Of a stretch of DNA of 64,000 nucleotides, positions 7,134 to 26,303 are shown piece by piece. Under the pieces are notes generated by a model, which was not told the origin of the DNA, ran no database searches, and saw nothing but the letters and a program-made list of their open reading frames with translations. Source of the stretch: a bacterium. Its GTDB lineage: Bacteria; Patescibacteriota; Minisyncoccia; Phycocordibacterales; Phycocordibacteraceae. The stretch is taken from contig JAJYCP010000001.1 in the NCBI GenBank assembly GCA_021778295.1, positions 66,513 through 130,512 on the forward strand, read 5' to 3'. Position 1 is the stretch's first letter; each line of letters opens with the position of its first letter. The translations under genes and the position numbers were made by a program.

Positions 7134-7385
7134 ATGAAAATCGTCATTTGGGCGGTCCTGGGCGCGCTCGTCGGGTGGGTAGCCACCATGCTCGTCGGGG
7201 GCGGGGGAGGATTATTCTGGGATGTCATCGTCGGCGTTGCCGGAGCTGTCATCGGCGGATTTGTCATGAACCTGATCGGGTATCACGGTATCGGCGGACT
7301 CGATATTCTCATAGCGCTTTCAAGTGCGCTCGTGCTCATCGCCACGGTACGAGCGGTGCGTAAGGCGGGAAGCAGACCGAATTGA
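7134..7385 (+). CDS. GlsB/YeaQ/YmgE-family small membrane protein.
   Basis: MKIVIWAVLGALVGWVATMLVGGGGGLFWDVIVGVAGAVIGGFV..., the typical family sequence. 83 aa from ATG 7134. Confidence 0.75.
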   Translation: MKIVIWAVLGALVGWVATMLVGGGGGLFWDVIVGVAGAVIGGFVMNLIGYHGIGGLDILIALSSALVLIATVRAVRKAGSRPN

Positions 7386-7574
7386 AATAATGAAGAAGCC
7401 CCGCAAGAAGCCCTGCTTTTTGCGGGCCTTCTTGCGGGGCTTGCGTTTGATTGAGTCCCAAAGGGATCTCCAACATTTTTGACAAAGGTCGTGATTTTTG
7501 TCGGGAGTGCCACGCCACCCCTTGCGTCTCGACCTCACTTTGATCCGTCGCCCGCATTCGCACCATTTGCTCAT
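7320..7574 (-). CDS. Possible small zinc-ribbon protein (84 aa) with a basic tail.
   Basis: Strong SD GGGAGG sits 7 nt before ATG 7574. Translates to MSKWCECGRRIKV...(21)...CQKCWRSL (CxC...CxxC). The 3' third is translated through the yeaQ terminator hairpin and overlaps the yeaQ 3' end, so the true extent is uncertain. Confidence 0.3.
   Translation of the reverse strand: MSKWCECGRRIKVRSRRKGWRGTPDKNHDLCQKCWRSLWDSIKRKPRKKARKKQGFLRGFFIISIRSASRLTHRSYRGDEHERT
7393..7450 (+). terminator. Long GC-rich hairpin terminator after the yeaQ-like gene.
   Basis: GCCCCGCAAGAAGCCC-tgctttttgc-GGGCCTTCTTGCGGGGC followed by TTGCGTTTG. Confidence 0.55.
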
Positions 7575-7660: not shown

Positions 7661-9112
7661 TCAGCCCTTGTTTGTATCGTGTGGCGGCGGTCGTTCTCTC
7701 CAGATGAAGGGTCCGAGATTCAAAAGTTCCGGCAGACGGTTCAGATAGGGGATATAGGGGAAGAGGATAAATGTGAGCATGATGAACCCGAGGATGAACG
7801 CGGCATCCCGATCGCCGTATAAGTTGTTCGGCAGATTGAAAACGCTGTTGACCACGGCAAGCGGCAGGAGCCACCACGAGCCGGGCGGAAGCTTCCATAC
7901 GCTTCCGGTCTCATCTTTAGTCATACCCCATTGGGCGGTATCCATGTTGAGTGTTGCGGCTTTCGCTTCCGGAATGCCCATATCCACCAAAAAGCGCAGA
8001 GTATACGTGTTGTTGATGCTCGGATTTTCTTGATCGAGAAGCGACTCATATAGCCCGCTTTGCGCTATCGGCATGAGCGTATCGAGCATCGCAATGACGG
8101 GGTTCGTCGTGCTTGCAGAGAAATCCATACTCGTGGCACTAACGTACTGTTGTGCCCCCTGGATATCGGCGTTTTGAAGAGCGGTTGACGCGCTGATAAA
8201 CGCGGTCCACGCGTTTGGTTTTTTGCTGTTTGCCAGGTACTGCTCGTAGGGCGTCACGACATAAACTTCTCTGGTATCGAATGTGTAGGGATCGATGGAG
8301 TCGAAATAGGTTGCGGTGTCTGATGTGTGGGTAAATTCTTGCAGAAGCGTCGTCGCGACAAGACTCGGGTCTTGCCGAGCGATATCCGCAATGCGCACTG
8401 CCGGCACGTACGGCGAATGGAAGAAGAACGCGAGTGCGAGAATGAGCGCAACGAGCGCCCCGCCGCGGATAAAGAGGATGCGATGATCCGCGGGAACCAT
8501 GGTGTAAGAAATGTCTTTGCGGTAGGGGCGCGCGATGCCGTAGGTGCGCTCAAGCACGTAGTGGGCGAGGAAGAGTGCGAGTATCGTGAGCGGAATAATA
8601 GCAATATGGATCACGAGCGTTTGCGTGTAGTTGAGCGGGTTAAGCCAGTAGCCGAGATAGGCGCCGTTCCAAAAGTCTGCTCCGGAAACTGCCCGGAATT
8701 GAGAAGAAAAATCACCGCGCAAGCCGTAGCCGAATTCAGTCTGGATAAGCACCAGACAAAAAATAATCGCTCCGAAGACCCACACCATCCTGCGCGGCGC
8801 GCGGAAGCCGCTTGTCGTAAATCCGACGAGAACGTGGAGTAGGAGGATGAATATGAAAGCCTGCACCGTCCACAGATGCACGCTCCGGAGGAAAATGCCC
8901 CATGGATTCGTAAGCCACCACGTCTGACCCATGAATGCCATCGTGATGCCGGTAACGGCGAGTAGTACCAGGCACGTAAGCGCCAGGAAGCCGAGCGAAT
9001 AGAATATCTTGTTGCCGTAGGAGGGCAGCCGGTGGAAATACACCTTGTCCCGAAGCGTTTTGAGAGCGTTGGTATGCGGACCGTATTGCGGAGACTCTGG
9101 TCCCTCGTCCAT
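7661..9112 (-). CDS. Cytochrome b/b6-like (N-terminal di-haem domain) membrane protein with a ~230-aa C-terminal extension and a terminal TM.
   Basis: Aligns with cyt b6 by eye. IFYSLGFLALTCLVLLAVTG matches IFYCLGGITLTCF. LRSVHLWTVQAFIFILLLH carries a His pair 14 residues apart, as in helix B. PRRMVWVFGAIIF... matches PRELTWVTGV. LVIHIAIIPLTILALFLAH carries the helix-D His pair. Start at ATG 9112 (the track ORF starts at GTG 9166). Confidence 0.7.
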   Translation of the reverse strand: MDEGPESPQYGPHTNALKTLRDKVYFHRLPSYGNKIFYSLGFLALTCLVLLAVTGITMAFMGQTWWLTNPWGIFLRSVHLWTVQAFIFILLLHVLVGFTTSGFRAPRRMVWVFGAIIFCLVLIQTEFGYGLRGDFSSQFRAVSGADFWNGAYLGYWLNPLNYTQTLVIHIAIIPLTILALFLAHYVLERTYGIARPYRKDISYTMVPADHRILFIRGGALVALILALAFFFHSPYVPAVRIADIARQDPSLVATTLLQEFTHTSDTATYFDSIDPYTFDTREVYVVTPYEQYLANSKKPNAWTAFISASTALQNADIQGAQQYVSATSMDFSASTTNPVIAMLDTLMPIAQSGLYESLLDQENPSINNTYTLRFLVDMGIPEAKAATLNMDTAQWGMTKDETGSVWKLPPGSWWLLPLAVVNSVFNLPNNLYGDRDAAFILGFIMLTFILFPYIPYLNRLPELLNLGPFIWRERPPPHDTNKG

Positions 9113-9200
9113 GGCTCTACCATAGCACGTGCACCAAGAGCAGGAATGATCCGTGATACACTTCACAGCTATAGCAGCTACCTAAAACGATTAGTCACCC

Positions 9201-9926
9201 ATGGTTCACTCGCATATCTACATCAAAAAACTGGATGAGCAGGACGGGTATACCGTCTGGCTCGTAAATGGCGCACTGGTTCGCAAAGAACTCGATGAGA
9301 ACTTCGTCGAATATGACTACCACGGTCACTTTCGTTTTATTCCGGAAAAAGAATTTTGGATCGATGATGAAATGTCCGGAAAAGAATACCACCTGTACAT
9401 CAAACGCCTCCTCAAGGAAGTCTCTTTTCTAAAAGAGGGAATTACTGTCGCGGAAGCCGCTCATAAGGCCGACGCTTTTGAGGAAACGCTCCGACAGAAC
9501 GGGAAACGCATGCAAAAGATTCTCACTTCTCAAAACCAAGAGATGCTCCGCCGCTCTCTCAAGAAAGAGAAGCTTAAGGAATACAGCAGCGCGGTAAGCG
9601 TGTGGCTCGTCGACGGGCCTCTCGTCAGGAGCGTATACATGCTCGGGTACGCCGAAGGGGGACACGACGTAGTGTATGCATGGATTCCAAAAAATGAGAT
9701 TTGGCTCGAAGAATCTCTCAAGACGGAGGAGCGTGCCTTTATCGTGCTGCATGAATTGCATGAGCGGTACCTCATGCTCTCGCAAAAAATGTCCTATGCG
9801 AACGCGCACCACGGAGCGACTATCATCGAAGATCATTACCGGGAGAACAGGAAAGGGCTCGAGGAACGCATCCGTGAAGAAATAAAAAAGAACGATTCGG
9901 TCTCGGGTGATGCGTTGGACAAGTAA
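9201..9926 (+). CDS. Hypothetical protein with an internal domain duplication.
   Basis: Two repeats of about 80 aa share VWLV(N/D)G(A/P)LVR...GH...IP..E.W. No assignable family. Confidence 0.5.
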   Translation: MVHSHIYIKKLDEQDGYTVWLVNGALVRKELDENFVEYDYHGHFRFIPEKEFWIDDEMSGKEYHLYIKRLLKEVSFLKEGITVAEAAHKADAFEETLRQNGKRMQKILTSQNQEMLRRSLKKEKLKEYSSAVSVWLVDGPLVRSVYMLGYAEGGHDVVYAWIPKNEIWLEESLKTEERAFIVLHELHERYLMLSQKMSYANAHHGATIIEDHYRENRKGLEERIREEIKKNDSVSGDALDK

Positions 9927-10833: not shown

Positions 10834-11442
10834 TCACCATATAAACAAGATAAGATTCCAAGTTTTTTTAGTATATTCCGTATACGCGCTTCCAAAGCGC
10901 TTTTTCAAAGCGATTTCCTCGACGTGTATACGCCAACGATACCCGATACATACGGTCGAGAGTATGAAAAGCAGACCCATCCAATTTCCGAGCGCGAGGC
11001 CCACGCCGAGAACGGAGATCATCGATCCGGTGTAGGACGGGTGGCGAAGATACCGGTACGGTCCGGACGTGATGAGTTTGTGGTCGTCTTGGATGAGGAC
11101 AACGGTTCGAAAGTATTTCCCCAGCGTTTGAATCGACCAGAGGCGGAACAGAATACCCACCCAGATTAAGATGATTCCGGAAGTGAAAAGTAAAGAATTC
11201 AAACCACCATTATCGATACGGAATGCCGGTACCAAGAAGGCAAAAGCAAAAGCGAGGAAAATTCCTGTATACAGCATGGCCCAAAAAAATAATGCGCTAT
11301 AACCGTCCGTATTGTCGGTGGTCGTTTTTGCGCGCACGTCGCGCATGCTTACCCAGGTTTCAAAGACAAAGAACCATGAATAAAAACTAACCCAAAAAAG
11401 AATTGCCCAAATGGGATTATTCGTAATTGAGACTGCATTCAT
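10834..11442 (-). CDS. Isoprenylcysteine carboxyl methyltransferase (ICMT)/phospholipid methyltransferase-family membrane protein.
   Basis: Conserved motif YRYLRHPSYTGSMI and C-terminal EE..L...FG..Y..Y. Confidence 0.75.
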   Translation of the reverse strand: MNAVSITNNPIWAILFWVSFYSWFFVFETWVSMRDVRAKTTTDNTDGYSALFFWAMLYTGIFLAFAFAFLVPAFRIDNGGLNSLLFTSGIILIWVGILFRLWSIQTLGKYFRTVVLIQDDHKLITSGPYRYLRHPSYTGSMISVLGVGLALGNWMGLLFILSTVCIGYRWRIHVEEIALKKRFGSAYTEYTKKTWNLILFIW

Positions 11443-24568: not shown

Positions 24569-25495
24569 ATGTCTCAGAAAAACGTTTTGATCGTTAGTAA
24601 CACTGACGATGCACATGCTACGGCAGTCCAGGATCGACTTAGGGAACGCTCAATACTGGTGGGCCGTTTGGACAGCGACACGTTCACTTTTGGACAGCAT
24701 GTATGGCGCATCCGCTCAGACACAAACCTGGAATCAAGCTCCTCCTGGTATGTTCCAGATGTGAATGTCATCTGGTATCGGAAAGTGAGGTTCCCAGAAC
24801 CAACTAATGCAGTCCGATCCTTTCTAAATCAGGAAGCTCAAGGGTTGTTTGACTGTATCCTCGCCGATTATCACGACTGTAGATGGGTCAACCCGCGTGA
24901 TCGACTTGCTGAAGCAAGGTCCAAGATCGTGCAGTTGCAACGCGCTAAAGGTGCAGGACTGCGTATTCCCGATACAATCGTCACCACCAGCGTGGAAGCA
25001 TTAGGAGAATTTTCGGCTCGCCACAATGGTCAAATCGTTGCAAAACCAATCCAAGCACAAATTGTGGGTTCAGGCGACGATGCCCTAGTCATTGGGACCA
25101 GGCAGTTAAGCTTGGGGCATTTCGAATCAGCGGTCAGATTCTCTCCCTGTTATGCGCAAGAGCGGTTGTCATTGAAGTCAGAGATCAGGGTCGTTGCTTT
25201 CGGAGACCGGCTCCATTCTTTTCGGCTTACTGCGAAAGAAAAAGCCGATGATCTCAAGCAGCTCAAGTTGAGCAAAATTGATCATGAGCGATGCGAATTG
25301 GATGAAAGCACCTCACGAAAGATTCGCTCAGTCATGTCGCTCTACGGTTTGGAGTTCGCTGCAATTGATCTCGCCGTCATCGACGATGAGGAGCCCGTGT
25401 TTTTAGAGCTCAATCCGAACGGTCAGTGGCTGTGGCTGCAGTATATGACCGGTGAGAACCTAATCGACCCGTTCATAGACCTGCTATGTCCTTAA
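24569..25495 (+). CDS. MdnC/MvdD-like graspetide (microviridin-type) ATP-grasp macrocyclase.
   Basis: SD GGGAG. Matches MdnC block by block: VLIVS..DD, VIWYRKVRF (compare VWYRRMRY), and the C-terminal FAAIDLAVIDDEEPVFLELNPNGQWLWLQ (compare YGAIDMIVTPDERYIFLEINPVGEFFWLE). Confidence 0.8.
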   Translation: MSQKNVLIVSNTDDAHATAVQDRLRERSILVGRLDSDTFTFGQHVWRIRSDTNLESSSSWYVPDVNVIWYRKVRFPEPTNAVRSFLNQEAQGLFDCILADYHDCRWVNPRDRLAEARSKIVQLQRAKGAGLRIPDTIVTTSVEALGEFSARHNGQIVAKPIQAQIVGSGDDALVIGTRQLSLGHFESAVRFSPCYAQERLSLKSEIRVVAFGDRLHSFRLTAKEKADDLKQLKLSKIDHERCELDESTSRKIRSVMSLYGLEFAAIDLAVIDDEEPVFLELNPNGQWLWLQYMTGENLIDPFIDLLCP

Positions 25496-25559
25496 CGTGT
25501 TGCTTCCGAGCCCATTACCCCAGCGGGTAGTGGGCTCCTCTGTTAGTATAATCAGACGC

Positions 25560-26303
25560 ATGATAAAAGTTGCATCTAACAAATTGACAGCATTGACCAA
25601 AGTATTGCCACAACCGCTTGATTTTATAGTCGTTGGAGAAATGCACGGTTCCAGACAAAATGCGCCTCTCGTACAAGAATTGTTATTGACCGTTCTTACA
25701 GAACAGAAACCAGTAACCGTCGCTTTTGAATGGCTGCTCACCGATCCCGAACTCGATGCGTTGCGAAGATATGTATGTGGTGGCGAGACACCAGCGCAAC
25801 TATCAACTTTCTTTCTGGACTCCGATGGACGTTTTACTTTGGAACACATCGCCTTATTGAAGTGGATTCGCGCCTATAATGCTACGCACCATAATCTTAT
25901 TGATCTATACGCATTCGATAAGCCAAGCAAGAGCGGGGCATCAGATCAAGTCATGGCTGACTCATTACGTACTTATAAAAAGCGCCACCCCGAGTCACTA
26001 ATTCTGATTGAGACTGGCAATATGCACGCAAGAAATTCAATCGATATGTCTATAGGCGCCGGGCAGGTATCAATGGCTACGATATTGAAAAAAGACTATC
26101 TTGTGTTTTCCATTTTCTTGCACTATATACAGGGCAAGATATTGGTAGAAGGAGAAAATAGAGATGTAATGGAGGCGACGTCACAACAAGAGGGTCCGAG
26201 AACTTATTTTGATGCCATGATTGAGATACCTGTTTCGGAGCCAGCTCGAAATCCTAATGACTTGACGGAGATTTTTCAATTGCTACAATCCCGGCCAGCG
26301 TGA
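25560..26303 (+). CDS. ChaN/TraB/Tiki-superfamily protein (putative metalloprotease-like).
   Basis: Motif FIVVGEMHGSRQNAPLVQELL resembles the GxxH core of PF04187. TATAAT sits 7 nt before ATG 25560 (the track ORF begins at GTG 25497). Confidence 0.45.
   Translation: MIKVASNKLTALTKVLPQPLDFIVVGEMHGSRQNAPLVQELLLTVLTEQKPVTVAFEWLLTDPELDALRRYVCGGETPAQLSTFFLDSDGRFTLEHIALLKWIRAYNATHHNLIDLYAFDKPSKSGASDQVMADSLRTYKKRHPESLILIETGNMHARNSIDMSIGAGQVSMATILKKDYLVFSIFLHYIQGKILVEGENRDVMEATSQQEGPRTYFDAMIEIPVSEPARNPNDLTEIFQLLQSRPA

What the first reader, a model, noticed from the sequence alone, without database searches (positions are those of the whole stretch)
7661..9112. Cytochrome b6-like di-haem membrane protein with a long unique C-terminal extension in an otherwise respiration-poor neighbourhood
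The N-terminal 200 aa align convincingly with cytochrome b6/QcrB, including both bis-His haem-ligand pairs on helices B and D. A ~230-aa hydrophilic extension and a terminal TM follow. No Rieske, cytochrome c or quinol-oxidase genes are adjacent. The neighbours are a YeaQ-like protein and hypothetical genes. If this genome is from a CPR-like organism, as gene sizes suggest, a cytochrome b homolog would be noteworthy. Such lineages generally lack electron-transport chains.
Basis: partly seen in the sequence, partly recalled or inferred. Interest (0 to 1): 0.55.

Follow-up and report, generated by a model that had tools for sequence, protein, structure and literature searches.

The report
Orphan capped cytochrome b in CPR
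This gene encodes a genuine two-haem cytochrome b with no Rieske partner and a conserved, previously undescribed outward-facing domain; the same protein occurs in ultra-small CPR bacteria, DPANN archaea and some Propionibacteriaceae, and sometimes lies next to quinol oxidase genes.

Summary
Window 7661-9112 (-) encodes a 483-aa membrane protein. Residues 31-192 are a cytochrome b/b6 four-helix core that passes Pfam's cut-offs, and all four haem-ligand His are in place.

The extension is not unique. After a fifth TM helix comes a ~200-aa acidic, all-alpha, outward-facing domain and a last TM. This layout is conserved full-length in hundreds of proteins and is under selection as strong as the core's (dN/dS ~0.05). 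It matches no Pfam family or PDB fold.

The window is from a CPR (Minisyncoccota) MAG. The family also forms a DPANN clade that includes cultured Nanobdella aerobiophila. A Propionibacteriaceae clade, including cultured Raineyella fluvialis, nests inside the Saccharimonadia sequences.

It is not a bc1/b6f subunit:
- No Rieske or cyt c gene is linked in the window or in 78 related loci.
- No Cytochrom_B_C domain or PEWY motif is detectable.
- 'LPW(D/G)Q' is replaced by an invariant 'LRGDF'.

The only recurrent linkage is to quinol oxidases: cyo 0.6-3.4 kb away in 3 loci and cydAB adjacent in 1.

Best reading: a Rieske-independent, quinone-pool-linked transmembrane electron conduit with a new extracytoplasmic cap. 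Its substrate and the direction of electron flow are unknown. Cyt b in CPR and Rieske-less PetB in DPANN were already noted in the literature, so this is a new variant of a known kind.

The parts
7661..9112 (-). Complete CDS, 483 aa plus TGA stop: orphan cytochrome b with an extracytoplasmic cap domain
   Evidence: ORF list and translation. An identical protein is found on 14 public contigs. The N-termini of family members support the ATG at 9112.
8537..9022 (-). Cytochrome b/b6 four-helix core (helices A-D, residues 31-192)
   Evidence: PF13631 43.8 bits and PF00033 33.1 bits. Cytochrome b6 chains at E 1.9e-10 for the single sequence and 3.7e-22 for the family profile. The AF2 model has pLDDT 80.8 and its Foldseek top hits are cyt b chains at E 3.6e-7.
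8876..8878 (-). H79, predicted haem bL ligand on helix B (p side)
   Evidence: Aligns with b6 H86. Invariant in 78/78 sequences.
8834..8836 (-). H93, predicted haem bH ligand on helix B (n side)
   Evidence: Aligns with b6 H100. Invariant; spacing of 14 from H79 in 78/78.
8606..8608 (-). H169, predicted haem bL ligand on helix D
   Evidence: Aligns with b6 H187. Invariant.
8561..8563 (-). H184, predicted haem bH ligand on helix D
   Evidence: Aligns with b6 H202. Invariant; b6-type spacing of 15 from H169 in 78/78.
8708..8737 (-). End of helix C and start of the cd segment: invariant E126 and 'LRGDF' (131-135), a polar replacement of the canonical Qo-site 'LPW(D/G)Q'
   Evidence: 'LRGDF' is present in 78/78 sequences. 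Alignments to b6 and QcrB place R132-G133-D134 on P-W-D, and E126 three residues before the conserved GY Tyr. E126, R132, D134, Q138, R140, D146 and N149 are at least 97% conserved.
8417..8485 (-). Fifth TM helix (helix E equivalent, residues 210-232), starting with the invariant H210
   Evidence: Hydropathy and the AF2 helix 210-230. The yeast cyt b alignment extends to residue 234. H210 is present in 78/78 sequences.
7817..8416 (-). Family-specific extracytoplasmic all-alpha 'cap' domain (residues 233-432); conserved motifs TSDTATYxDSIDPY, SGLYE, LRFL, QWGM and PPG(S/A)WW
   Evidence: Net charge is -12, while the BC loop, DE loop and C-tail are net positive, which places the domain outside. 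Mean column identity is 0.60-0.66 against 0.70 for the core. dN/dS is 0.04-0.06 without the variable insert. No Pfam hit. No PDB sequence hit. No PDB fold hit: best E 1.2, from a model with pLDDT 67.8.
   Evidence: Gapped, low-identity columns (0.37) in the family alignment. dN/dS is 0.25-0.37.
7871..7888 (-). 'PPGSWW' motif (409-414) preceding an amphipathic helix; positional analogue of the PEWY/ef-loop element, with homology not demonstrated
   Evidence: W413 and W414 are invariant and the motif variants are listed. PF00032 was not detected in 31 C-terminal fragments. The hhalign score is 16.6 against 13.0 for the reversed control.
7760..7816 (-). Last TM helix (residues 433-451)
   Evidence: Hydropathy and the AF2 helix 433-449. 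Its best local hhalign placement in a canonical cyt b profile is helix F, but this is not significant.
7664..7759 (-). Cytoplasmic C-tail with the conserved 'PYIPYLNRLPE' motif
   Evidence: P452, P455 and P461 are invariant. Net charge is positive.
7396..7445 (.). Terminator-like hairpins on both strands between the convergent YeaQ-like gene (7137-7385 +) and the cyt b gene
   Evidence: Consensus scan only. 7 sites were found in the 3-kb region against 3.1 expected.

Best explanation
The gene encodes a stand-alone, Rieske-independent di-haem cytochrome b that most likely carries electrons across the cytoplasmic membrane.

Shown:
- It has a b6-type four-helix core with both bis-His haem sites, plus a fifth TM helix.
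- It then has a ~200-aa acidic all-alpha domain on the outer (haem bL) face and a final TM.
- The whole architecture is under strong purifying selection in CPR bacteria, DPANN archaea and a Propionibacteriaceae clade.

Inferred:
- The canonical hydrophobic Qo pocket and Rieske docking surface have been replaced. In their place is a polar, invariant p-side site (E126, LRGDF, Q138, R140, D146, N149) covered by the new cap domain.
- Electrons therefore move between haem bL and an extracytoplasmic substrate or partner. On the n side they move between haem bH and membrane quinone at a Qi-like site (invariant (D/N)209-H210 and R216).
- Several CPR lineages place the gene beside bo3 or bd quinol oxidase clusters, and these organisms cannot make quinone. 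I therefore propose that the protein feeds or drains the same scavenged quinone pool, acting as a one-subunit redox-loop module.

The direction of electron flow and the outer substrate remain unknown.
For: Cyt b identity and haem ligands. Fold: the AF2 model has pLDDT 80.8 and pTM 0.78, and its Foldseek top hits are all cyt b chains at probability 1.0. Topology places the cap outside.

Constraint on the cap equals that on the core: column identity 0.60-0.66 against 0.70, and dN/dS about 0.05 for both.

No conserved operon partner was found. Across 78 loci no neighbour family recurs, 147 immediate neighbours hit 138 different Pfam families, and none of 1,318 called neighbour genes has a Rieske motif.

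bc-type hallmarks are absent: no PF00032, 'LRGDF' in place of 'LPW(D/G)Q' in 78/78, no haem-ci Cys, and NCBIfam scores of 35-48 bits against cut-offs of 290-740.

Quinone link: a cyo cluster lies 0.6-3.4 kb away in L022, L015 and L027, and cydAB lies 27 nt downstream in L029. These four loci fall in at least three subclades. The literature reports terminal oxidases in only a few percent of CPR genomes (7 and 5 of 282 MAGs in PMC9166423; 3 of 492 SAGs in PMC7507113). By my own rough estimate, chance co-location within +-10 kb would then give well under one case. Pyr_redox_2 flavoproteins sit directly upstream in two DPANN loci.

CPR with cyo lack quinone and haem synthesis and are thought to scavenge both (PMC6031116, PMC8407418).
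Against: The oxidase linkage is seen in only 4 of about 84 loci and not in this window. No quinone-binding site has been demonstrated. The invariant p-side residues are charged or polar, unlike any known quinol pocket. Whole-genome content (oxidases, NDH-2, a Rieske gene elsewhere) could not be examined. My chance estimate for the linkage rests on literature prevalence figures, not on a matched control. The flavoprotein neighbours may be TrxR/FNR-like rather than NDH-2. Haem binding is predicted, not measured.
Confidence: 0.5

Rival explanations
1. It is the cytochrome b subunit of a conventional Rieske/cyt b (bc1, b6f or bcc-type) complex, and its Rieske and cytochrome c partners are encoded elsewhere in the genome.
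For: The core is clearly homologous to cyt b6 and QcrB. Only 64 kb of the genome is visible. One Parcubacterium with a full PetAB complex has been described (PMC5220378).
Against: No Rieske or cyt c gene is linked in the window or within +-10 kb in 78 loci. No Cytochrom_B_C domain or PEWY motif is detectable. The 'LPW(D/G)Q' cd motif is replaced by 'LRGDF' in all members. A 200-aa cap occupies the face where the Rieske head docks in canonical complexes. In DPANN the iron-sulfur subunit is absent from most genomes that have PetB (PMC5864196). NCBIfam scores are far below the equivalog cut-offs.
Confidence: 0.08
2. It is a quinone-independent transmembrane reductase, working like cytochrome b561 or ferric-reductase-type proteins. 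A cytoplasmic reductant or flavoprotein donates electrons at the n side, and the cap binds an extracellular acceptor such as Fe(III), another metal or an oxidised surface molecule.
For: These organisms cannot make quinone (PMC8407418, PMC6031116). The p-side site and cap are polar and acidic, with invariant Tyr, Asp and Met residues (Y269, Y276, Y289, Y355, D271, M397) and no His or Cys. Pyr_redox_2 flavoproteins lie directly upstream in two DPANN loci. Judging by their isolate names, many source MAGs appear to come from mine-drainage settings; that reading is mine and was not checked.
Against: No known member of the cyt b/b6 family works without quinone (background knowledge, not tested here). 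The linkage to quinol oxidases points to the quinone pool. No metal-binding motif was recognised. The flavoprotein adjacency is seen in only 2 loci.
Confidence: 0.17
3. It is an oxygen-stress device. It takes electrons from extracytoplasmic superoxide or another reactive species into the quinone pool, as E. coli CybB (cytochrome b561) does, and so complements bo3/bd oxidases used for O2 detoxification.
For: The gene co-locates with bo3/bd oxidases in four CPR loci. Invariant Arg residues lie on the p side (R76, R132, R140). The family occurs in oxic soils and groundwater and in the aerobic co-culture organism N. aerobiophila. The oxidases in CPR and DPANN have been proposed to serve O2 tolerance (PMC8407392).
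Against: There is no sequence or fold relation to CybB. The cap is strongly acidic (net -12), which would repel superoxide. Nothing here tests it.
Confidence: 0.1
4. It is not a redox enzyme. The protein is a haem-scavenging, haem-storage or structural membrane protein, or a decaying relic of a lost respiratory chain.
For: CPR and DPANN are haem auxotrophs that must handle scavenged haem (PMC6031116). No partner genes were found.
Against: A relic is excluded by dN/dS of about 0.05 over the whole length and by 45-100% identity across two domains of life. Retention of both bis-His pairs with exact spacing in 78/78 sequences is what electron transfer across the membrane requires, not what storage requires.
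Confidence: 0.05

Closest known systems
Cytochrome b6 (PetB) of b6f complexes and the b6-type QcrB of Bacillota
   Same: Four-helix core with two bis-His haem sites. 13 residues lie between the His on helix B and 14 between those on helix D, which is the b6-type spacing. These are the best sequence matches (E 3.7e-22 with the family profile).
   Different: There is no Cys for covalent haem ci (Ser, Gly or Ala at that position). 'LRGDF' replaces 'LPWDQ'. Helix E is fused on. There is no subunit IV or PEWY element. There is no Rieske or cyt f/c partner. It adds a 200-aa cap. It scores 47 bits against the 325-bit NCBIfam cut-off.
Actinobacterial QcrB of the bcc complex, and Rieske-less plasmid-borne QcrB-like or 'cytochrome b N-terminal domain' genes of Streptomyces, Rhodococcus and Pseudarthrobacter
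   Same: Top Foldseek hits are 7q21_B, 9ftz_H and 7e1v_B (E about 4e-7). Helices B-D align at 28-35% identity. Some of these genes are also orphan, with no Rieske gene nearby.
   Different: QcrB keeps PDWY/PDFY and helices F-H. Its long extension is C-terminal and cytoplasmic. No homolog of the cap domain is present.
Rieske-less b6-like quinol dehydrogenase subunits such as ExtP (NF040969) and the Cbc-type cytochromes of Geobacter
   Same: A cyt b6-like module used outside a Rieske/cyt b complex. ExtP is the best NCBIfam hit (47.7 bits).
   Different: The score is far below the 290-bit cut-off. Those proteins sit in operons with multihaem c-type cytochromes or FeS proteins (background knowledge), whereas none is linked here. 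They have no cap domain.
Cyt b 'subfamily G' of Dibrova et al. 2017 (PMC5600118), and the Rieske-less 'PetB' reported in Micrarchaeota and Parvarchaeota (PMC5864196, PMC8407392)
   Same: These are probably the same or overlapping sequences: cyt b homologs from Saccharibacteria, Patescibacteria and DPANN, noted as lacking the iron-sulfur subunit and as laterally transferred.
   Different: Those papers list or count the genes. They do not describe the cap domain, the altered p-side motifs, the distribution across CPR, DPANN and Propionibacteriaceae, or the linkage to quinol oxidases. I could not verify sequence identity with their datasets.

Membership tests
Cytochrome b/b6 superfamily (PF00033 / PF13631) | Profile match above the curated threshold | tested here: met
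   PF13631 43.8 bits (cut-off 27) and PF00033 33.1 bits (cut-off 27.2).
Cytochrome b/b6 superfamily (PF00033 / PF13631) | Two His on helix B and two on helix D at the haem-ligand positions with the correct spacing | tested here: met
   H79, H93, H169 and H184 align with b6 H86, H100, H187 and H202. Spacing is 14/15 and all four His are present in 78/78 sequences.
Cytochrome b/b6 superfamily (PF00033 / PF13631) | Cyt b fold | tested here: met
   The AF2 model has pLDDT 80.8. All 50 listed Foldseek PDB hits are cyt b chains, with E down to 3.6e-7 and probability 1.0. TM-scores of about 0.4 reflect a match to the N-terminal half only.
Cytochrome b/b6 superfamily (PF00033 / PF13631) | Actual binding of two b-type haems | not testable with these tools
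   Requires spectroscopy of purified protein.
Rieske/cytochrome b complexes (bc1, b6f, bcc) | Rieske iron-sulfur subunit gene linked or present | tested here: not met
   No CxH...CxxH motif occurs in any window ORF of 50 aa or more or in 1,318 neighbour genes of 78 loci. tblastn with two Rieske proteins over 1.29 Mb hits only small soluble Rieske proteins in two actinobacterial loci. The rest of the genome could not be examined.
Rieske/cytochrome b complexes (bc1, b6f, bcc) | Cyt b C-terminal domain or subunit IV with the P(E/D/V)WY Qo motif (PF00032) | tested here: not met
   PF00032 is absent at E<=1 for the full protein and at E<=10 for 31 C-terminal fragments. No cyt b or subunit IV chain is hit by the C-terminal profile. 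The hhalign placement on helix F scores 16.6 against 13.0 for the reversed control. 'PPGSWW' is only a positional analogue.
Rieske/cytochrome b complexes (bc1, b6f, bcc) | cd-loop Qo motif 'LPW(G/D)Q' | tested here: not met
   It is replaced by 'LRGDF' in 78/78 sequences.
Rieske/cytochrome b complexes (bc1, b6f, bcc) | c-type cytochrome (or other high-potential acceptor) subunit linked | tested here: not met
   Only 2 small window ORFs carry CxxCH, as do 9 of 1,318 neighbour genes with no recurrence. No cytochrome c family appears among the neighbour Pfam hits listed.
Cytochrome b6 sensu stricto (NF002990) / QcrB (NF050120) / SoxC (NF041076) / ExtP (NF040969) | NCBIfam curated score cut-off | tested here: not met
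   Scores are 47.4/325, 41.2/500, 35.4/740 and 47.7/290 bits.
Cytochrome b6 sensu stricto | Cys35 for covalent haem ci/cn (CxGG) | tested here: not met
   That column holds Ser 61, Gly 15 and Ala 2 of 78 sequences.
Quinone-reactive redox-loop cytochromes b (functional class) | Functional or genomic association with quinone-pool enzymes | tested here: inconclusive
   cyo or cyd clusters lie within 3.4 kb in 4 of about 84 loci, in at least 3 subclades. None is present in this window. Genome-level co-occurrence was not testable.

The most novel reading that the evidence does not exclude
The capped cytochrome b is an anciently shared device of ultra-small episymbionts. It appears vertically inherited within CPR classes and within DPANN, and was passed from Saccharimonadia to Propionibacteriaceae, a family within the Actinomycetota from which known Saccharibacteria hosts come. 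Its outward-facing cap would let the symbiont exchange electrons with something outside its own membrane, such as the host's surface or quinone pool. That would give organisms described as ancestrally lacking electron-transport chains a minimal respiratory or redox-balancing link that depends on the host.
Probability: 0.12. Interest if true: 0.85.

Novelty: new variant of a known kind. Interest (0 to 1): 0.58.

Why it matters
CPR bacteria and DPANN archaea are usually described as fermenters without electron-transport chains. A minority carry quinol oxidases, and the source of electrons and quinone for those oxidases is unexplained. A single-subunit, strongly conserved cytochrome b that has lost the Rieske/Qo machinery and gained an outward-facing domain is a candidate for the missing second component of such minimal chains, or for redox exchange with the host. 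It recurs in both radiations and sometimes sits beside those oxidases. The family also exists in two cultured organisms: Raineyella fluvialis (free-living) and Nanobdella aerobiophila (in co-culture with its host, with a complete 0.67-Mb genome). The question can therefore be tested experimentally. The cap domain has no detectable relative in Pfam or PDB, so it may be a new fold or a new type of p-side site on a very well studied protein scaffold.

Tried and rejected
1. 'The extension is unique': rejected. It is conserved in hundreds of proteins.

2. 'The C-terminus is a relic PEWY plus helix F': my own idea, from the resemblance of 'PPGSWW...NLPNN...TM...FPYIPY' to 'PEWY...SIPNK...helix F...PF(L/V)D'. 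Pfam PF00032 was not found in 31 fragments. The PDB profile search found no cyt b or subunit IV chain. hhalign places the region on helix F but barely above a reversed control. A colinear BLASTP HSP to a Pseudarthrobacter orphan cyt b has E 0.37. I keep it only as a positional analogy.

3. Conserved operon partner: all-vs-all clustering of ORFs from 80 loci gave only shadow ORFs and generic ABC ATPases. The immediate neighbours show no theme.

4. ICMT methyltransferase link (window 10834-11442 against a similar arrangement on a Pseudarthrobacter plasmid): the similarity is only generic, at 31% identity, and the intervening ~170-aa proteins are unrelated.

5. Known fold for the cap: the C-terminal-only AF2 model (pLDDT 67.8) gave no Foldseek PDB hit at E<=0.001.

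6. Fusion clue: P0301 carries an extra TM and a weak PQQ/BamB-like propeller. It is a single 4.5-kb contig, the domain scores below the Pfam cut-off, and no homolog lies near other family members.

7. Haem-uptake clue: the ChaN-like hit at window 25497-26300 is below the cut-off and covers only ~30 aa.

8. 'DPANN and Actinomycetota labels are mis-binning': rejected. The DPANN copies form their own clade, and their flanks carry A/V-ATPase subunits, deoxyhypusine synthase and CDC48. The actinobacterial copies lie on 66-67% GC contigs with sugar-transporter and sulfatase genes, and one is in a cultured isolate.

9. Two exact-protein look-ups gave nothing or too little to help: one meant to annotate the rest of the window and one for the Raineyella locus. 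A third returned only a 2.8-kb contig.
Full report
**1. What is in the sequence**

Window 7661-9112 on the minus strand is an intact ORF with ATG start and TGA stop, encoding 483 aa. A GTG at 9166 would add 18 residues, but the N-termini of relatives support the ATG. The identical protein is found on 14 public contigs.

Pfam assigns residues 35-234 to Cytochrom_B_N_2 (43.8 bits, cut-off 27) and Cytochrome_B (33.1 bits, cut-off 27.2). The best PDB sequence matches are cytochrome b6 chains (1vf5_A, E 1.9e-10). H79 and H93 on helix B, and H169 and H184 on helix D, align with the b6 haem ligands H86, H100, H187 and H202. A profile of 39 relatives raises the b6 match to E 3.7e-22. Against yeast cyt b the alignment extends to residue 234, which is through helix E.

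An AlphaFold2 model built on the family alignment has pLDDT 80.8 and pTM 0.78. All of its listed Foldseek hits in PDB are cytochrome b chains (E down to 3.6e-7, probability 1.0). TM-scores are about 0.4 because only the N-terminal half matches.

**2. Anatomy**

Hydropathy and the model give six TM helices: A (33-61), B (70-99), C (108-131), D (162-191), E (210-232) and a last one (433-451).

The BC loop, DE loop and C-tail are net positive across the family (+2.4, +1.7, +2.5). The 200-residue segment 233-432 is net -12. With the canonical cyt b orientation, this segment lies outside the cell, on the haem bL side. It is predicted to be all-alpha.

**3. The extension is not unique**

A search of 5.8 billion proteins returned 439 hits. 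The 120 best are 424-547 aa long, cover 92-100% of the query and share 50-100% identity with it. A scan of one genome per species found 116 relatives.

In a 78-sequence alignment spanning all clades, mean column identity is:
- 0.70 for the core;
- 0.60-0.66 for the two conserved parts of the extension;
- 0.71 for the last TM plus the start of the tail;
- 0.37 for a length-variable insert (residues 294-338).

Against three close relatives, dN/dS is 0.04-0.09 for the core and 0.04-0.06 for the extension without the insert. The extension is thus a functional domain.

It matches no Pfam family and no PDB sequence. When modelled alone (pLDDT 67.8) it matches no PDB fold; the best hit has E 1.2. An exhaustive phmmer search of 1.84 billion cluster representatives with the extension alone found only 18 clusters. 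All that I inspected are this family or fragments of it.

**4. How it differs from bc-type cytochromes b**

All 78 sequences share these features:
- The b6-type His spacing of 14 on helix B and 15 on helix D.
- No Cys at the haem-ci position (Ser 61, Gly 15, Ala 2).
- 'LRGDF' in place of the Qo-site cd motif 'LPW(D/G)Q'.

The alignments place an invariant Glu (E126) three residues before the conserved Gly-Tyr of helix C. From background knowledge, that is the position of yeast F129, a residue lining the Qo pocket. Further invariant polar residues follow: Q138, R140, D146 and N149.

The only universally conserved cofactor-capable residues outside the four ligands are H210, at the cytoplasmic start of helix E, and M397 in the cap. 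The cap therefore carries no obvious extra haem or metal-cluster site.

NCBIfam scores for ExtP, cytochrome b6, QcrB and SoxC are 35-48 bits against cut-offs of 290-740.

I suspected that 'PPGSWW', an amphipathic helix, 'NLPNN', the last TM and 'FPYIPY' were a relic of PEWY, the ef helix and helix F. The tests did not support this:
- PF00032 is not detected in 31 C-terminal fragments even at E<=10.
- The C-terminal profile finds no cyt b or subunit IV chain in PDB.
- hhalign places the region on helix F of a canonical profile with a score of 16.6, against 13.0 for the reversed control.

This remains a positional analogy only.

**5. Partners and context**

In the window, the gene is convergent with a weakly YeaQ/GlsB-like gene (22.3 bits, below the cut-off). 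It is divergent from a 241-aa protein with no family assignment.

The 64 kb contains housekeeping genes: MreB/C, PBPs, Mur ligase, MraW, DnaB, tRNA synthetases and EPSP synthase. It contains no respiratory, haem or quinone genes. No ORF has a Rieske motif, and only two small ORFs have CxxCH.

Across 78-80 related loci with up to +-10 kb of flank:
- No neighbour family recurs apart from generic ABC ATPases.
- 147 immediate neighbours hit 138 different Pfam families.
- None of 1,318 called neighbour genes has a Rieske motif.

The gene is also stand-alone in an actinobacterial MAG. In cultured N. aerobiophila it follows two T2SSF genes.

The one recurrent association came from a tblastn of E. coli CyoB/C/E, CydA/B and Ndh against 1.29 Mb of family loci:
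- A cyo (bo3) cluster lies 0.6-3.4 kb from the gene in L022, L015 and L027.
- cydAB begins 27 nt downstream, convergent, in L029.

These four loci lie in at least three subclades. Terminal oxidases are reported in only a few percent of CPR genomes: 7 and 5 of 282 MAGs in PMC9166423, and 3 of 492 SAGs in PMC7507113. My rough estimate of chance co-location within +-10 kb of a ~1-Mb genome is therefore well below one case. Even if every genome had an oxidase, the expectation would be about 1.5 cases. This is an estimate, not a controlled test.

Pyr_redox_2 flavoproteins, which may be NDH-2-like or TrxR-like, sit directly upstream in two DPANN loci.

**6. Who has it**

The window is CPR. Its housekeeping proteins lie on a 132-kb NCBI contig, and their cluster mates at 90% identity or more are named '[Minisyncoccota bacterium]'. 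The closest named homologs are Paceibacterota and Kaiserbacteria.

The family also occurs in Adlerbacteria, Saccharimonadia and Doudnabacteria.

Five DPANN-labelled contigs from five independent bins carry copies that are each other's nearest relatives. Their flanks encode A/V-type ATPase subunits, deoxyhypusine synthase and KaiC-type ATPases. A further DPANN-type MAG locus (P0306) has CDC48 in its flank. A deeper branch includes 'cytochrome b6 [Nanobdella aerobiophila]', from a cultured ectosymbiotic archaeon with a complete 669-kb genome.

Three contigs with 66-67% GC, carrying sugar-transporter and sulfatase genes, hold copies that are about 76% identical to each other. A follow-up search found Propionibacteriaceae MAGs and cultured Raineyella fluvialis.

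In a midpoint-rooted NJ tree, the DPANN sequences form one clade, the CPR sequences fall into class-like clades, and the Propionibacteriaceae sequences nest inside Saccharimonadia. This suggests long residence in both radiations, plus a transfer from Saccharibacteria into an actinobacterial lineage. An NJ tree without an outgroup is weak evidence for either point.

**7. What is already known**

- Dibrova et al. 2017 (PMC5600118) listed Saccharibacteria and Patescibacteria sequences in cyt b 'subfamily G'.
- Chen et al. 2018 (PMC5864196) noted a 'bc1 complex' in Micrarchaeota and Parvarchaeota whose iron-sulfur subunit is missing from most genomes.
- Li et al. 2021 (PMC8407392) called PetB in these phyla LGT-derived.
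- Papers on CPR aerobic components discuss cyo and bd oxidases, scavenged quinone and scavenged haem, but not this protein (PMC8407418, PMC9166423, PMC6031116).

In the searchable literature I found no description of the cap domain, the altered p-side motifs, the distribution across CPR, DPANN and Propionibacteriaceae, or the oxidase linkage.

**8. Interpretation**

Shown: a strongly constrained, stand-alone di-haem cytochrome b with a new outward-facing domain, lacking every tested hallmark of a Rieske/cyt b complex.

Inferred: it moves electrons across the membrane between an n-side site near haem bH and a remodelled, polar p-side site under the cap. The n-side site is possibly Qi-like, given the invariant (D/N)209-H210 and R216. 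The oxidase linkage suggests that the n-side partner is the scavenged quinone pool.

The direction of flow and the outer substrate are open. Alternatives are:
- a conventional complex with partners encoded elsewhere (unlikely);
- a quinone-independent b561-like reductase;
- a superoxide-scavenging role;
- a non-redox role (unlikely given the selection pattern).

**9. Verdict**

It is wrong on uniqueness and overstates how unprecedented the finding is.

This is a new variant of a known kind. Interest is moderate to fairly high, because the protein recurs in both ultra-small radiations, has an uncharacterised domain on a textbook scaffold, and can be tested in two cultured organisms.

Noticed in passing
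window 25497-26300 (+), next to 24569-25492 (+): A 268-aa protein has a sub-threshold hit to the ChaN/Tiki 'haem-binding uptake' family (27.1 bits against a 27.7-bit cut-off, over a ~30-aa stretch). It lies directly after an ATP-grasp-like gene. If real, it could bear on haem scavenging.
   Followed up: partly
window 10834-11442 (-); L092 831-1493: An ICMT/PEMT-family methyltransferase lies ~1.7 kb upstream of the cyt b. An ICMT also lies two genes upstream of an orphan cyt b on a Pseudarthrobacter plasmid. The similarity is only generic (31% identity) and the genes in between are unrelated.
   Followed up: yes
L087 2174-3883; L088 2141-3805 (Streptomyces and Rhodococcus plasmids): Full-length QcrB-like cytochrome b genes sit alone on actinobacterial plasmids beside FAD-dependent monooxygenases, with no Rieske or cyt c gene nearby. 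This is a second kind of orphan cyt b.
   Followed up: no
P0301 (ENA ERZ1426827, 4.5-kb contig): One family member is fused to an extra TM helix and a ~500-aa domain with weak PQQ/BamB-type beta-propeller similarity (20.9 bits, below the cut-off). By topology this domain would be extracytoplasmic. No homolog is found near other family members.
   Followed up: yes
L081, L083, L085, L093; P0147: A Propionibacteriaceae clade of the family, including cultured Raineyella fluvialis, nests inside the Saccharimonadia sequences in an NJ tree. This hints at gene transfer from Saccharibacteria into Actinomycetota, the phylum from which known Saccharibacteria hosts come.
   Followed up: partly
L095 7756-11497 (Nanobdella aerobiophila AP019769.1): In this cultured DPANN archaeon the cyt b homolog directly follows two T2SSF (type IV pilus/archaellum platform) genes on the same strand, 50 nt after the second. 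A T2SSE ATPase gene lies upstream on the opposite strand.
   Followed up: no
L096 8841-12835; L077 8898-9926: In two DPANN loci, Pyr_redox_2 flavoproteins (NDH-2-like or TrxR-like) directly flank the cyt b. In L096 the downstream one adjoins a pyruvate dehydrogenase E1/E2/lipoate-ligase cluster.
   Followed up: partly
window 9201-9926 (+): A 241-aa protein, divergent from the cyt b with an 88-bp intergenic region, has no Pfam match. It appears to consist of two similar halves (a repeated 'VWLV[ND]G.LVR...' motif).
   Followed up: no
window 7396-7445: Terminator-like hairpins on both strands lie between the convergent YeaQ-like gene and the cyt b gene. This comes from a consensus scan only.
   Followed up: no
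L077 13567-13654: A tRNA-Lys call of 88 nt with the anticodon at position 37 may contain an intron. That would be consistent with an archaeal origin of this contig.
   Followed up: no
window residues 264-275 of the protein (nt 8288-8323): The most conserved motif of the cap (TSDTATYxDSIDPY) is the only internal segment that AlphaFold models with pLDDT below 50. That would fit a flexible ligand- or partner-binding loop.
   Followed up: no
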